Below, piece by piece: positions 28,401 to 31,400 of a DNA stretch of 64,000 nucleotides (within the stretch, counting starts at the first letter, position 1; every line of letters starts with the position of its first letter). Position numbers: made by a program. This stretch comes from a virus (lineage: Duplodnaviria; Heunggongvirae; Uroviricota; Caudoviricetes), in the IMG/VR virus record IMGVR_UViG_2703718862_000005, one strand, 5' to 3'.

Positions 28401-31400
28401 TTATATAACGATAAAGAACAGGGAGTGAGTTATGTCCAAAAATGACCGAATGGTGGGCATCAGCCGCAGAACACTCGTTAAATCAACCGCGATAGGTTCT
28501 CTGGCGCTGGCTGCAGGCGGTTTTTCTTTACCGTTCACCCTGCGCAGTGCAGCGGCAGCGGTACAACAGGCCAGCGAAAAAGTGATCTGGGGTGCCTGTT
28601 CCGTCAACTGTGGTAGCCGCTGTGCACTTCGTCTACATGTTAAAGATAATGAAGTCACCTGGGTGGAAACTGACAACACCGGCAGCGACGAGTATGGCAA
28701 TCATCAAGTACGCGCCTGTTTGCGTGGTCGATCCATCCGTCGGCGTATTAATCATCCCGATCGCTTGAATTACCCAATGAAACGCGTGGGCAAACGCGGC
28801 GAAGGCAAATTCGAACGGATTAGCTGGGATGAAGCCCTGGATACTATCGCCAGTAGCCTGAAGAAAACCGTCGAACAATATGGCAATGAGGCTGTATATA
28901 TTCAGTACTCTTCGGGGATCGTTGGCGGCAATATGACCCGCTCTTCGCCATCAGCCTCGGCGGTCAAACGCCTGATGAACTGCTACGGCGGTTCACTCAA
29001 TCAGTATGGCTCCTACAGCACCGCGCAAATTTCCTGTGCCATGCCCTACACCTACGGCAGTAATGATGGCAACAGCACCACGGATATTGAAAACAGCAAG
29101 CTGGTCGTGATGTTTGGTAACAACCCGGCAGAAACCCGCATGAGCGGCGGTGGCATCACTTATCTTCTTGAAAAAGCGCGCGAGAAATCGAACGCCAAAA
29201 TGATTGCTATCGATCCGCGATATACCGATACGGCTGCTGGTCGTGAAGATGAATGGCTCCCTATTCGCCCGGGCACCGATGCCGCGCTGGTTGCGGGTAT
29301 TGCCTGGGTATTGATTAACGAAAATCTCGTTGATCAACCTTTTCTCGATAAATACTGCGTCGGCTATGACGAAAAAACCTTACCCGCAGATGCACCCAAA
29401 AATAGTCACTATAAAGCCTATATTCTTGGTGAAGGTGATGATAACACAGCGAAAACGCCGCAGTGGGCTTCGCAAATTACCGGTATCCCGGTAGACCGTA
29501 TCATCAAACTGGCGCGTGAAATTGGCACAGCAAAACCCGCTTATATCTGCCAGGGCTGGGGGCCGCAACGCCAGGCAAACGGCGAACTGACTGCACGCGC
29601 TATTGCTATGTTACCTATTTTGACGGGCAATGTCGGCATCAGCGGCGGAAATAGTGGCGCGCGTGAATCGACCTATACCATTACCATAGAACGCCTGCCG
29701 GTGCTGGATAATCCGGTCAAAATGTCAATCTCCTGCTTCAGCTGGACAGATGCTATCGATCATGGTCCGCAAATGACGGCAATCCGCGACGGCGTCCGCG
29801 GCAAAGATAAACTGGATGTGCCCATTAAGTTCATCTGGAACTTCAAGGACTTGAAGCGGACCCTTAGTAGGCCTGAGGTCCTGCATTGAGTCAAGGACTT
29901 TGTGTCAGGCTTTGTGTCAGCCTTGTGTCATTAGACGGGATGTCTAGACGGCTGGTCAGCCCCCCGGTGGCCTCGGTCTGGACTTGAGGCGGGCTATGGG
30001 GGAAGTCTGCTGGCTTAATGTATTAGATGGTCATTCACATTTTTCTGTCAGAAACCATCGGTCCCACTGTGAGTCCAAACCTAAGCCCCCAGAAGCCCAC
30101 CCACAGCCTTAGACAGAGTGTCGAATACATTCACACCGAGTCGACCGGAGAGGACCATATAGAGACCCACAGAGAGGAACACGAGTTTATAGACCAGAGT
30201 CAGGAGGGACCTTAGGTCTGCGGAAGTCATAGACATAAAGCCTCCTTCGTCTATTGTACTACTGCACTAGATAACTAGTACAAAACAAAGGTCCAGACCA
30301 TTGGTCCAGACCATAGTTATCATGATGATTGGAACGATTGAACGGTAGGCACTTTACGTCTCACCCACTGTTCAGCTTCAGCCAGTGACCAGCATAGCCG
30401 CTTATAGACTCTGCGTGTCATCCAGATTGTTGCTTGATATCGTCCACCCTCCACAGGCTGTATAGATGTCTTAATCACAGTGACAGGCCACCACCTGAAG
30501 TCCTGCTGATATTCAGTCCAGACTTACCTCTGCTCATGGTCTTACCTCCCTCGGTCTCCTGACCTTGGGTATCGACTACAGCTTGCTGAGCGTCATCTGG
30601 AGGAGCTACAGGAGGAGCTACAGGAGGCGGGACCGAAGCCCCACCTTGAGTCCCACCACCACCTGTCAGGCCCTTGGCGATGGACCTGAAGCCTTTACTA
30701 ATGCTCTTACCCATTGGTCTTACGCTTCGGTCTTGGTGAACTTCAGGCGTTTGACTACAGGCAGGACGGCAGTAGCTGAGCCAGTGCCCATCTTGATGGT
30801 CGTAGCAGCTTCAGCGACAACGAACACTTTACCGAGGATTTCCAAGTCGTGGGACTGAGAGTCGCCATCACGTGAAAGGACGACCGTAATATTCTCGCCA
30901 TCGTGACGGAAGCAACCGAAGCTCAGAGCCGTGAAGCGTTTAGCCAGCATGAATACACCCTTGTCTTCACCGTTGTAGTAGGCGATGTCTGTTCCCAGCA
31001 TATCGACGATAGCGTCTTCACCGGAGAAGCCTTGCTTAGCAGCCAGACGGGACAGTGCTTTCAGTTGGCTCTCATGAGCGATAATACCGTAGTCAGACAC
31101 CTCAGAACCGAAAGAAGACTCTGTGTTCTCATACAGAGCGTCCATGATAGCGTCTGCCTTAGCGGTCAGGCTACCAGTCAGGACAGGAAGCTCTACGGTC
31201 TTCAGCAGCTTAGAGGATTCCAGAACGTCGACCATGCGAGCGTTGATGGTACGGACCACATTCTCACAGATGTTCATAGCGTCCTGCTGAAGTGTGCCCT
31301 GAGTGAATCCGGTGGATGACTTGGCGTCCCAGAGCTTGGTCTGCTCAGAGATGAGAATAGCCTGCTCGATTGGTTCGACCACGATTTCTTGTCCAGACGG

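What the first reader, a model, noticed from the sequence alone, without database searches (positions are those of the whole stretch)
30081..30314. Terminal small membrane protein of the island with strong RBS and upstream tandem repeat
A 51-aa hydrophobic protein closes the island gene module, preceded by GGTCCAGACCAT x2. If the module is driven by phage RNAP, this could be a holin-like or abortive-infection effector, or a membrane-targeted helper inhibitor.
Basis: inference. Interest (0 to 1): 0.45.

Follow-up and report, generated by a model that had tools for sequence, protein, structure and literature searches.

The report
Small membrane-protein gene ending a T7-like satellite
The 51-codon gene is real and conserved, and its upstream "tandem repeat" is an RNA hairpin; both sit at the end of a 6.6-kb E. 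coli island built like a miniature T7-type phage, where such phages keep the poorly understood membrane gene 19.5.

Summary
The minus-strand ORF 30081-30236 encodes a 51-aa protein with one hydrophobic helix and one amphipathic helix. It has the strongest Shine-Dalgarno site of the island. The 2x GGTCCAGACCAT repeat lies at 30290-30314.

The ORF is a real gene. It is 51 codons long in all 17 distinct variants from five genera, with dN/dS 0.13-0.43. The family occurs only in these islands.

The "tandem repeat" is a 10-bp RNA hairpin plus a U-tract on the coding strand. It is kept in 11 of 12 variant types despite changed loops and stem lengths.

The island lies in ynfE, at about 29843-36477. 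It carries two promoters of Kayfunavirus (T7-like) type and a gp7.3 homologue. Directly after the ORF's stop codon there is a copy of the helper phage's concatemer-junction/terminal-repeat region. Excised unit-length forms occur in metagenomes.

Hairpin, SD and ORF therefore occupy the position of T7 gene 19.5. Homology to gp19.5 was tested and not found.

Most likely function (inferred): a membrane peptide made from phage-polymerase read-through that tunes lysis or membrane permeabilisation. Toxin/abortive-infection and exclusion roles remain open. I found no published description of the island type.

The parts
30081..30236 (-). 51-aa ORF. AF2 model: helix 5-30 (contains the hydrophobic membrane segment, about residues 10-30), turn 31-34, amphipathic helix 35-49.
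   Evidence: Found in 40 protein clusters. Open and 51 codons long in all 17 distinct variants. dN/dS 0.13-0.43. Variable sites by codon position 15/12/31. pLDDT 86.6.
30241..30247 (-). Shine-Dalgarno AAGGAGG, 4 nt upstream of the ATG.
   Evidence: Kept as (T/G)AAGGAGG in most variants, weakened in a few, and deleted in L017/L023.
30262..30283 (-). Second predicted hairpin, UUGUACUAG-UUAU-CUAGUGCAG (9 bp), between hairpin 1 and the SD.
   Evidence: The sequence is conserved only in the W, L022/L018, L010 and L056 variant types; other variants lack it.
30290..30312 (-).
   Evidence: Kept in 11 of 12 variant types. Sense-strand energy -12 to -22 kcal/mol, always more stable than the antisense strand. 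Loops and stem lengths vary through paired insertions.
30280..30289 (-). U-rich tract (UUUGUUUUGU) directly 3' of hairpin 1; hairpin plus tract look like an intrinsic terminator.
   Evidence: The tract is U-rich in most variants but poor in some.
29905..30077 (-). Region homologous to the concatemer junction of Kayfunavirus Ro45lw: the pre-repeat (pacB-like) segment plus the first ~120 nt of the terminal repeat. The repeat start aligns near 30028.
   Evidence: local alignment score 55; 1000 shuffles 17.9 +/- 2.2, maximum 28; variants L054/L055 match the phage almost exactly over CGATGA(A/G)TTTTGGACCAAAAGTT(A/T)GAGACC.
29832..29842 (.). attL core CATCTGGAACT within ynfE (attR copy at 36478-36488).
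   Evidence: (repeat D15). The attP junction is seen in free forms.
30475..30714 (-). 79-aa homologue of T7 gp7.3 (virion assembly / host-range protein). In most islands it is the gene directly upstream of the hairpin.
   Evidence: phrog_1320, E 1.8e-11; PF11653, weak; 43% identity to Ro45lw 17765-18013, E 7e-14.
30320..30478 (-). 52-aa basic ORF inside a 150-bp indel that only some islands carry.
   Evidence: Conserved at the protein level in a diverged island with a different upstream neighbour (L056).
33934..33961 (-). Phage-type promoter GACCCTAAACTATCACTATAGGGAGACC, the likely source of transcripts that reach the ORF.
   Evidence: 33.9 bits with a matrix built from 10 Ro45lw promoters that score 32-36.9. 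(25/25 identity to the promoter before the phage capsid gene). (310 phage records matched, 6-8 sites each in the records listed).
34363..34390 (-). Second, weaker phage-type promoter, upstream of the 122-aa ORF.
   Evidence: 21.9 bits. No other site in the 64-kb window scores above 10 bits.
36340..36372 (-). Sequence like the right boundary of the helper's terminal repeat, including ATCTGTA. It lies on the other side of the att site, inside the 5' end of the integrase gene.
   Evidence: score 35; 500 shuffles 18.2 +/- 2.4, none reached it. It becomes contiguous with 29905-30077 only in the excised form.

Best explanation
The ORF encodes a real 51-residue single-pass inner-membrane protein. The 'repeat' is an RNA hairpin plus U-tract on the coding strand. 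Hairpin, strong SD and small membrane ORF form one module. This module is the last expressed unit of a ~6.6-kb integrative element in ynfE that is organised like a miniature Kayfunavirus (T7-like) genome. Reading along the minus strand, the island holds an integrase, two helper-type phage-RNAP promoters, a few island-specific genes, a gp7.3 homologue, this module, and then a copy of the helper's concatemer-junction/terminal-repeat region. The module therefore occupies the place of gene 19.5 in T7-like phages, although the protein is not a detectable gp19.5 homologue.

Proposed mechanism (inferred). In an uninfected cell the ORF is silent, because it has no promoter of its own and the hairpin stops host-polymerase read-through. 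On infection by a helper, the phage RNA polymerase fires the promoter at 33.96 kb. Part of that transcription passes the hairpin and continues into the packaging region. The ORF is translated efficiently and its product inserts into the inner membrane. There it shifts the timing of membrane permeabilisation or lysis in the satellite's favour, as proposed for gp19.5 and shown for PLE LidI.

Shown here: the gene is real, the hairpin is conserved, the context is helper-like, and excised forms exist. Inferred: the timing of expression, the insulator role of the hairpin, and the lysis-timing function.
For: The gene is real.
- 40 homologous protein clusters at 80-100% identity.
- Found in Escherichia, Shigella, Leclercia, Citrobacter and Kluyvera.
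- All 17 distinct DNA variants keep an open 51-codon frame. The other five frames carry stops in nearly every variant.
- Variable sites by codon position are 15/12/31, and dN/dS is 0.13-0.43.
- A 66%-identical member keeps the same layout.
- AF2 predicts two helices, 5-30 and 35-49, with pLDDT 86.6.

The hairpin is real.
- The terminator scan finds it.
- The sense-strand fold has z = -3.85, against -1.71 for the antisense strand.
- It is kept in 11 of 12 variant types with different loops, A-U to G.U changes and paired stem extensions.
- It stays next to the small ORF whatever lies upstream: the gp7.3 gene, the 52-aa ORF, or an HNH gene plus a phiOR-like promoter.

The context is helper-like.
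- Two promoters of Kayfunavirus type are the only such sites in the 64 kb.
- The 79-aa protein is a gp7.3 homologue.
- The DNA after the stop codon is homologous to the Ro45lw concatemer junction.
- The other repeat boundary lies across the att site.
- In T7 and Ro45lw the last gene before the right terminal repeat is gp19.5, 49 and 52 aa. T7 gp19.5 is predicted to span the membrane (PMC2680503), and both proteins have a hydrophobic window.
- Unit-length excised forms show 51-aa gene, attP, integrase in that order.

The position is kept even when the protein changes. Islands lacking the 51-aa ORF carry a 26-aa hydrophobic ORF with the same hairpin and SD at the same place.

Functional analogy.
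- gp19.5 is non-essential, predicted to span the membrane, and evolves when T7 lysis genes are deleted (PMC2680503, PMC8365609).
- PLE LidI is a previously unannotated small membrane protein, made only on infection, that accelerates lysis (PMC7182436).
Against: - There is no detectable homology to gp19.5. BLASTP finds nothing. hhalign gives probability 0.4-0.8%. NF040465, PF17553 and phrog_2193 do not match.
- The charge pattern differs from gp19.5. The N-terminus is neutral, there are no cysteines, and the C-terminus is mildly basic and amphipathic. This suggests the opposite membrane orientation.
- There is no match to any holin family and no endolysin or spanin gene in the island.
- The gene can be lost. 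The SD is deleted in L017/L023, frameshifted alleles exist (P0031-P0040), and some islands have the 26-aa ORF instead.
- Some hairpin variants have poor U-tracts, and one variant (L024) lost the hairpin.
- No expression, toxicity or phage data were available.
- The helper relationship itself is inferred from sequence only.
- The function of gp19.5 is itself unsettled.
Confidence: 0.45

Rival explanations
1. The product is a toxic membrane peptide used for abortive infection or for island maintenance. In this reading the 51-aa or 26-aa peptide depolarises the inner membrane. It is kept off by the upstream hairpin or by an antisense RNA, and it kills the cell when the phage polymerase (or loss of control) turns it on.
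For: Its size and hydrophobicity fit type I toxins, and the 26-aa alternative MDLHKVYLVVFLLKLVLVVVLTVRVR fits especially well. A very strong SD sits behind a terminator-like hairpin, and the start codon region is predicted to pair within a third hairpin. A weak sigma-70-like site on the opposite strand at 30230-30257 could produce an antisense RNA.
Against: No Pfam, PADLOC or NCBIfam toxin family matches, and Rfam finds no antitoxin RNA. By eye, the opposite-strand promoter-like site is not conserved across the variants aligned. No promoter for the ORF itself was found. An element that carries the helper's packaging site gains nothing by killing the cell before packaging.
Confidence: 0.2
2. 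The product is a superinfection-exclusion or DNA-entry factor. In this reading a resident inner-membrane peptide interferes with the ejection channel or genome entry of T7-like phages, protecting the host or biasing entry.
For: The island family also carries homologues of ejected virion proteins. It has a gp7.3 homologue, and the Jnd12 variant has a gp16 homologue. A membrane location would put the peptide at the site of phage DNA entry.
Against: Exclusion needs expression before infection, but no host-type promoter precedes the ORF and a terminator-like hairpin does. No defence family matches.
Confidence: 0.1
3. The product is a true but highly diverged gp19.5 orthologue that acts in concatemer processing and packaging, rather than at the membrane for lysis.
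For: It has the same position next to the packaging region, the same size, and a hairpin about 30-50 nt upstream, as in T7 and Ro45lw (by eye). hhalign aligns residues 1-18 with the N-terminus of gp19.5 at 39% identity. According to PMC2680503, Kim et al. 1997 suggested that gene 19.5 helps generate the M-hairpin, whose deletion impairs concatemer processing.
Against: The alignment is not significant (probability 0.8%). The conserved gp19.5 C-terminal motif E-[ST]-[LV]-V-C...C and the basic N-terminus are absent. The curated gp19.5 model does not match. A profile search of 1.84 billion proteins links the family to no phage protein.
Confidence: 0.1
4. The ORF is not a gene. In this reading the sequence is conserved as cis-acting DNA of the packaging region and the open frame is incidental.
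For: It lies directly beside a conserved packaging region. RefSeq annotation omits it in the records inspected.
Against: Substitutions concentrate at third codon positions, dN/dS is well below 1, and the frame and length are kept across about 25% DNA divergence. The homology to phage DNA begins only after the stop codon.
Confidence: 0.03

Closest known systems
T7-group gene 19.5 product (NCBIfam NF040465, Pfam PF17553, phrog_2193)
   Same: It is the last gene before the right terminal repeat and packaging region of a T7-type genome. It is about 50 aa with one hydrophobic, predicted membrane-spanning segment, has a strong SD, and has a hairpin a few tens of nt upstream. It is dispensable. It has been proposed to affect lysis timing (PMC2680503, PMC8365609).
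   Different: No significant sequence similarity. The island protein lacks the basic N-terminus and the acidic, cysteine-bearing C-terminus. It probably has the opposite orientation in the membrane. It sits in an integrative 6.6-kb element, not a phage. In this window no phiOR-type promoter lies directly upstream.
LidI of Vibrio cholerae PLE satellites
   Same: A small, originally unannotated membrane protein of a satellite of a virulent phage. It is made only on helper infection and manipulates lysis timing (PMC7182436).
   Different: LidI is 66 or 121 aa and belongs to an unrelated satellite and helper (ICP1, a myovirus). Sequence similarity was not tested here. A lysis effect for the E. coli protein is only inferred.
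Phage holins (for example T7 gp17.5)
   Same: Small inner-membrane proteins expressed late in infection.
   Different: No holin family matches. There is no strongly charged C-terminal tail, and no neighbouring endolysin or spanin gene.
Type I toxin peptides (Hok, TisB, ShoB, Ibs)
   Same: Hydrophobic peptides under 60 aa with a structured 5' leader. The alternative 26-aa ORF resembles them in composition.
   Different: No family match, no Rfam antitoxin, and no conserved promoter for either the peptide or an antisense RNA.
Intrinsic and T7 class I terminators (for example T-phi)
   Same: A G+C-rich stem-loop followed by a U-run, placed after a structural gene, with downstream genes dependent on read-through.
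   Different: The stem is short (10 bp) with G.U pairs, and the U-tract is interrupted or weak in several variants. It travels with the downstream ORF rather than with the upstream gene. Its activity is untested.

Membership tests
T7 gp19.5 family | Matches the curated family models (NF040465, PF17553, phrog_2193). | tested here: not met
   Ro45lw gp19.5 scores 67.5 bits on NF040465 and T7 gp19.5 scores 88.6 bits on phrog_2193. The island protein has no hit, even at permissive E-value limits.
T7 gp19.5 family | Pairwise or profile similarity to gp19.5 proteins. | tested here: not met
   BLASTP finds no alignment. hhalign gives probability 0.4% against a T7-only profile and 0.8% against a T7 plus Kayfunavirus profile.
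T7 gp19.5 family | Last ORF before the right terminal repeat / concatemer junction. | tested here: met
   The stop codon is at 30081. Homology to the phage junction begins at 30077. For comparison see T7 and Ro45lw.
T7 gp19.5 family | About 50 aa with one hydrophobic, membrane-spanning segment. | tested here: met
   51 aa. Hydropathy and the AF2 model agree.
T7 gp19.5 family | Basic N-terminus and the conserved C-terminal motif E-[ST]-[LV]-V-C...C. | tested here: not met
   Alignment A4 shows the motif. The island family (A1/A3) has no cysteine and a neutral N-terminus.
Holin | At least one transmembrane segment plus a highly charged cytoplasmic C-terminal tail. | tested here: inconclusive
   A hydrophobic segment is present. 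The C-terminal 20 residues carry only R32, K43 and D39.
Holin | Placed within a lysis cassette (endolysin, spanin) or matching a holin family. | tested here: not met
   No lysis genes in the island and no holin PHROG or Pfam hit.
Holin | Forms lethal membrane lesions at a programmed time. | not testable with these tools
   Needs expression and membrane-potential assays.
Type I toxin-antitoxin | Hydrophobic peptide under 60 aa. | tested here: met
   51 aa, or 26 aa in the alternative islands.
Type I toxin-antitoxin | Overlapping or adjacent antisense RNA gene, and an own promoter for the toxin. | tested here: not met
   No Rfam family matches. No minus-strand promoter was found. There is only one weak plus-strand site, and by eye it is not conserved in the alignment.
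Intrinsic (or T7 class I) terminator | G+C-rich stem-loop immediately followed by a U-run on the transcribed strand. | tested here: met
   Termination activity itself cannot be tested here.
Phage satellite (applies to the island that contains the ORF) | Integrase with att sites, and an excised form. | tested here: met
   Integrase. att core. attP junctions and a unit-length circular permutation in metagenome contigs.
Phage satellite (applies to the island that contains the ORF) | Carries helper-type regulatory and packaging signals but lacks most virion and packaging genes. | tested here: met
   Promoters. Junction and terminal-repeat homology. Only gp7.3 has a phage homologue. No hit for the whole island in the phage collection.
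Phage satellite (applies to the island that contains the ORF) | Helper-dependent induction, packaging and transfer. | not testable with these tools
   Needs infection experiments.
PLE LidI | Sequence homology to LidI. | not tested
   No LidI sequence was compared. The resemblance is functional and contextual only (PMC7182436).

The most novel reading that the evidence does not exclude
The island is an undescribed family of integrative satellites of virulent T7-like (Kayfunavirus) phages. Its packaging site is split by integration and rebuilt on excision. Its terminal hairpin-SD-peptide module (51-aa or 26-aa versions) would be a switch gated by the phage polymerase: host RNAP stops at the hairpin, phage RNAP reads through, and the membrane peptide then resets lysis timing or kills the cell to the satellite's advantage. 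This would be an independent, LidI-like invention at the gene-19.5 position.
Probability: 0.3. Interest if true: 0.75.

Novelty: new variant of a known kind. Interest (0 to 1): 0.5.

Why it matters
The role of gene 19.5 in T7-like phages has stayed unresolved since the 1990s. Proposals include a secondary holin, a lysis-timing factor, or a part in concatemer processing. Here a stripped-down 6.6-kb element has kept only a handful of helper-like features. Those features include a hairpin-SD-small-membrane-ORF module at exactly that position, in two non-homologous versions.

This argues that a small membrane peptide next to the packaging site does something selectable. It also offers a much simpler system for testing what that is.

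The context is also of interest. The island looks like a satellite of virulent T7-like coliphages, a helper group for which I found no described satellite. About 3% of complete E. coli genomes share the island's terminal segment, and the small genes are missing from the RefSeq annotations I inspected.

Tried and rejected
- Pfam, PHROGs, PADLOC and NCBIfam searches with the 51-aa protein, with diverged members and with the 26-aa peptide gave nothing usable. The DUF6131 hit (E 0.047, 14.4 bits against a cut-off of 25) is noise.
- tblastn of the protein against 50,697 phage records gave only chance hits. tblastn of the island proteins against the Ro45lw genome matched only gp7.3.
- A profile search of 1.84 billion representative proteins returned eight hits, all island members.
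- Homology to gp19.5 failed by BLASTP and by two hhalign runs. My by-eye alignment (YR/YK, G..L[ST]G, [ED][ST]L) has no statistical support, so I dropped it as evidence.
- I first thought ACTCACAGTG just after the stop codon was the equivalent of the T7 genome end. Comparison with a Kayfunavirus showed that the homologous repeat start is about 45 nt further on, near 30028.
- Direct-repeat protein-binding sites were rejected as a reading of the 12-mers. Unit spacing varies (13 to 22 nt), and the stem extensions are complementary.
- An RNase III site is unlikely, because the stem is only 9-15 bp.
- A dedicated promoter for the ORF was not found, either sigma-70 type or phage type.
- Rfam gave no family.
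- The 331-aa island protein stayed uncharacterised. The single-sequence AF2 model failed (pLDDT 32). The PDB profile search and PHROGs were empty. tblastn against phages was empty.
- Ten literature searches found no paper describing satellites of T7-like phages in Enterobacteria. The only related note is that ynfE is a known integration target (PMC7192596).
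Full report
OBSERVATION

The minus strand carries an ATG-initiated ORF at 30081-30236. 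It encodes MSMTSADLRSLLTLVYKLVFLSVGLYMVLSGRLGVNVFDTLSKAVGGLLGA. AAGGAGG lies at 30241-30247, 4 nt before the ATG. It is the only AAGGAGG in the island and the strongest Shine-Dalgarno site among the island's nine ORFs.

The 12-mer GGTCCAGACCAT occurs exactly at 30290-30301 and 30303-30314. The window holds two adjacent exact 12-mer pairs of this kind, while 30 shuffles of the window held none. The coordinates and description are therefore correct. A 51-codon ORF alone means nothing, so its reality had to be tested by comparison with relatives.

SETTING

The window is E. coli chromosome. The gene ynfE is split by a ~6.6-kb insertion. Its 5' part ends near 29842 and its 3' part resumes near 36478. 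An 11-nt core, CATCTGGAACT, is present at both joints.

All island genes are on the minus strand:
- a 527-aa tyrosine integrase;
- three ~80-bp tandem repeats;
- a 122-aa ORF;
- a 650-bp non-coding stretch;
- a KilA-N protein;
- ORFs of 55, 163 and 331 aa;
- a 79-aa protein;
- a 52-aa ORF;
- the repeat and the 51-aa ORF.

Versions covering at least 80% of this island occur in 25 of 5426 complete E. coli genomes. The terminal segment occurs in 172 of them, about 3%. RefSeq annotates none of the small ORFs in the records I inspected. ynfE has been listed as a target of integrative elements (PMC7192596).

THE ISLAND IS BUILT LIKE A MINIATURE T7-TYPE PHAGE

1. Promoters. A scoring matrix built from ten promoters of Kayfunavirus Ro45lw finds exactly two sites in the whole 64 kb. 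One starts at 33961 and scores 33.9 bits, within the phage's own range of 32-36.9. The other starts at 34390 and scores 21.9 bits. Both are on the minus strand. The first is 25/25 identical to the promoter in front of the phage capsid gene. Similar sequences occur 6-8 times per genome in the K1F-like phages of Escherichia, Salmonella, Enterobacter and Klebsiella that were listed.

2. A virion protein. The 79-aa protein is a gp7.3 homologue (phrog_1320, E 1.8e-11). It is 43% identical to the Ro45lw copy (E 7e-14).

3. The packaging region. The ~170 bp that start 4 nt after the stop codon of the 51-aa ORF align with the phage's concatemer junction. The aligned phage part is the segment just left of the terminal repeat plus the first ~120 nt of the repeat. 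The score is 55, against 17.9 +/- 2.2 (maximum 28) in 1000 shuffles. In two other island variants the pre-repeat segment is almost identical to the phage, CGATGA(A/G)TTTTGGACCAAAAGTT(A/T)GAGACC.

4. The other repeat boundary. A sequence like the right boundary of the phage repeat, including ATCTGTA, lies on the far side of the att site inside the 5' end of the integrase gene. The score is 35, against 18.2 +/- 2.4, and none of 500 shuffles reached it. The repeat-like region is therefore contiguous only after excision.

5. Excised forms exist. Three metagenome contigs show 51-aa gene, attP, integrase in that order. One 6749-bp contig is a circular permutation of the whole element lacking only 7 nt.

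6. What is missing. Nothing else in the island matches the phage, and the island as a whole matches no record in the phage collection.

I read this as a satellite-like element of virulent T7-like phages. That reading is inference from sequence. Ten literature searches found no description of such an element.

THE ORF IS A GENE

The protein database holds 40 clusters at 80-100% identity, none annotated beyond 'hypothetical'. Relatives occur in Shigella, Leclercia, Citrobacter and Kluyvera.

I extracted 17 distinct DNA variants. All keep an open frame of exactly 51 codons, with one lineage using a GTG start. The other five frames carry stops in nearly every variant. Variable sites fall 15/12/31 on codon positions 1/2/3. 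Pairwise dN/dS between lineages is 0.13-0.43, with dS up to about 0.9. A 66%-identical member from another sample keeps the same layout.

The homology to phage DNA starts only after the stop codon. Conservation of the ORF is therefore not a side effect of the packaging signal.

AlphaFold2 with the family alignment gives helix 5-30, a turn at GRLG, and helix 35-49, with mean pLDDT 86.6. Residues 11-29 form the hydrophobic core, and the second helix is amphipathic.

The gene is not indispensable:
- One lineage has lost the SD (L017/L023).
- Several assemblies carry frameshifted alleles.
- Some islands have, at the same place and behind the same hairpin and SD, a different 26-aa hydrophobic ORF, MDLHKVYLVVFLLKLVLVVVLTVRVR. 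Its stop codon overlaps the pre-repeat segment.

THE 'TANDEM REPEAT' IS A HAIRPIN

GGTCCAGACC is nearly self-complementary. On the coding strand the two copies form GGUCUGGACC-AAU-GGUCUGGACC, followed by UUUGUUUUGU. The terminator scan picks this up.

The 106-nt leader folds with z = -3.85 on the sense strand and -1.71 on the antisense strand. Among 12 variant types, 11 keep a 9-15-bp stem with energies of -12 to -22 kcal/mol. These stems contain 2-5 G.U pairs, which makes every one of them much weaker on the opposite strand.

Loops differ (AAU, UGAG, UUAU, UUCG, UUUG, UUC, GUAGCU, UAAC). Changes in the stem are A-U to G.U. Two lineages extend the stem through complementary insertions. Unit spacing of 13-22 nt argues against phased protein-binding repeats. 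One variant (L024) has lost one arm.

In most islands the hairpin follows the gp7.3 gene directly. The 52-aa ORF of this window sits in a 150-bp indel.

In strain Jnd12 the island also carries a gp16-like gene broken by an IS21-family insertion sequence, an HNH gene and a phiOR-like promoter. There the hairpin still sits just before the small ORF. It is therefore part of the ORF's leader, not simply the end of the upstream gene.

No sigma-70-like or phage-type promoter lies between the hairpin and the ORF.

COMPARISON WITH GENE 19.5

In T7 and in Ro45lw the last gene before the right terminal repeat is gp19.5, at 49 and 52 aa. T7 gp19.5 is predicted to span the membrane (PMC2680503), and both proteins have a hydrophobic window. 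The gene lies downstream of promoter phiOR. By eye, a hairpin lies a few tens of nt before its SD. The island module has the same position, size and layout.

Homology was tested and not found:
- BLASTP finds nothing.
- hhalign gives probability 0.4% and 0.8%.
- The curated model NF040465 hits the Ro45lw protein at 67.5 bits but not the island protein.
- Pfam and PHROG are likewise empty.
- A profile search of 1.84 billion proteins finds only island members.

gp19.5 has a basic N-terminus and an acidic, cysteine-bearing C-terminus. The island protein has neither, which suggests the opposite orientation in the membrane. I therefore call it a positional and physico-chemical counterpart of gp19.5, not a family member.

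HOW IT MOST LIKELY WORKS

What is shown:
- a conserved membrane-peptide gene;
- a conserved sense-strand hairpin plus U-tract in its leader;
- the best SD of the island;
- helper-type promoters 3.7 kb upstream and none nearer;
- a helper-type packaging region immediately downstream.

What I infer is as follows. Without a helper the ORF is silent, and the hairpin blocks stray host transcription. After infection, phage-polymerase transcripts partly pass the hairpin. They run on into the junction region, where transcription is thought to be needed for T7 packaging (from my own knowledge of T7; not checked here). The peptide is translated and inserts into the inner membrane.

For its activity I favour a shift in the timing of membrane permeabilisation or lysis. 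gp19.5 is non-essential and predicted to span the membrane. It acquires substitutions when the T7 holin or endolysin function is removed, and a deletion including it lyses late (PMC2680503, PMC8365609). The PLE satellite of Vibrio uses a small, previously unannotated membrane protein, LidI, made only on infection, to accelerate lysis (PMC7182436).

My confidence that the gene and hairpin are real, and that the module sits at the gene-19.5 position of a T7-like element, is high. My confidence in the lysis-timing function is about 0.3. For the whole statement it is 0.45.

RIVALS

- A toxin for abortive infection or island maintenance (0.2). This fits the composition of the 26-aa version and the tight leader. 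It has no antitoxin RNA, promoter or family support.
- A resident exclusion factor against phage DNA entry (0.1). This is attractive because the family also carries gp7.3- and gp16-like ejected proteins. It needs expression before infection, for which there is no promoter.
- A true but diverged gp19.5 acting in concatemer processing (0.1). This is unsupported by any statistic.
- A non-coding reading (0.03). This is contradicted by the codon pattern.

VERDICT

On its own, the small gene is a modest finding: an unannotated, island-restricted membrane peptide of unknown function.

Its value comes from context. It is one of the few helper-like features retained by what appears to be an undescribed satellite family of T7-like coliphages. 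It sits at the position of a phage gene whose role is a long-standing minor puzzle, and it comes in two unrelated versions.

Novelty: new variant of a known kind. Interest: 0.5.

Noticed in passing
window 36340-36372 (minus strand), inside the 5' end of the integrase gene: This sequence resembles the right boundary of the helper's terminal repeat and includes ATCTGTA, which is close to ATCTGTT, the sequence I recall as the T7 class II pause signal. Together with 29905-30077 it implies a repeat-like packaging region that integration splits and excision rebuilds.
   Followed up: partly
L054 9167-9247 and L055 9214-9294 (E. coli a15 and CREC-591): Islands lacking the 51-aa ORF carry a 26-aa, very hydrophobic ORF (MDLHKVYLVVFLLKLVLVVVLTVRVR) at the same position. 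It sits behind the same hairpin and AAGGAGG, and its stop codon overlaps the pre-repeat packaging segment.
   Followed up: partly
L021 (E. coli Jnd12) 520-15811: A larger island variant at the same ynfE site carries a T7 gp16-like internal virion protein gene split by an IS21-family insertion sequence (phrog_342 hits for the 863-aa and 455-aa halves). It also has an HNH endonuclease gene and a phiOR-like promoter (AGACTATCACTGTAGGGAC) about 650 nt upstream of the hairpin and ORF.
   Followed up: partly
L008, L009, L010 (metagenome assemblies ERZ1524541-3): These contigs show the element in excised form, with 51-aa gene, attP and integrase in that order. L008 (6749 bp) is a unit-length circular permutation missing 7 nt. 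This variant carries a DUF4145 protein instead of KilA-N.
   Followed up: yes
window 30320-30478 (minus strand): A 52-aa basic ORF (GTG start, no SD) lies in a 150-bp indel present only in some islands. It is conserved at the protein level in a diverged island, where it follows the 331-aa homologue directly (L056). It is probably a real small gene of unknown function.
   Followed up: partly
window 34416-34600: Three tandem ~80-83-bp repeats, each with a TTGACA box, lie between the integrase gene and the first phage-type promoter. Their position recalls the tandem early host promoters A1-A3 of T7, but the -10 elements are poor.
   Followed up: no
window 33300-33935, with 44-nt repeats at 33438-33481 and 33634-33677: A 650-bp non-coding stretch directly downstream of the strong phage-type promoter contains two 95%-identical 44-nt repeats. 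It is a candidate replication origin of the T7 type (promoter plus downstream element) or a source of non-coding RNAs. No Rfam family matches.
   Followed up: no
window 29843-36488: Two 8-9-mers are strongly enriched in the island. GTCCAGAC/GTCTGGAC occurs 8 times, against once in the other 57 kb. GACTCACAG/CTGTGAGTC occurs 7 times, against none. The first is the core of the hairpin arms and also occurs in the helper's terminal repeat.
   Followed up: partly
window 30720-31715 and 31791-32282 (minus strand): The 331-aa and 163-aa proteins are the conserved core of the island family, present in all variants seen and 42-98% identical. They match no phage protein, Pfam, PHROG or PDB family, and the single-sequence AF2 model failed. 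Their role, for example in capsid or assembly redirection, is unknown.
   Followed up: partly
window 29899-29930 and 36301-36320: Short direct repeats (TTTGTGTCAG / CCTTGTGTCA) flank both att sites. They align with TTGACCCAAGG-type repeats of the helper's terminal repeat and could equally be integrase arm sites.
   Followed up: no
window 31759-31783 (minus strand): A second terminator-like hairpin (AGTCCCTGACCCGATGTTAGGGACT followed by a T-rich tract) lies between the 163-aa and 331-aa genes.
   Followed up: no
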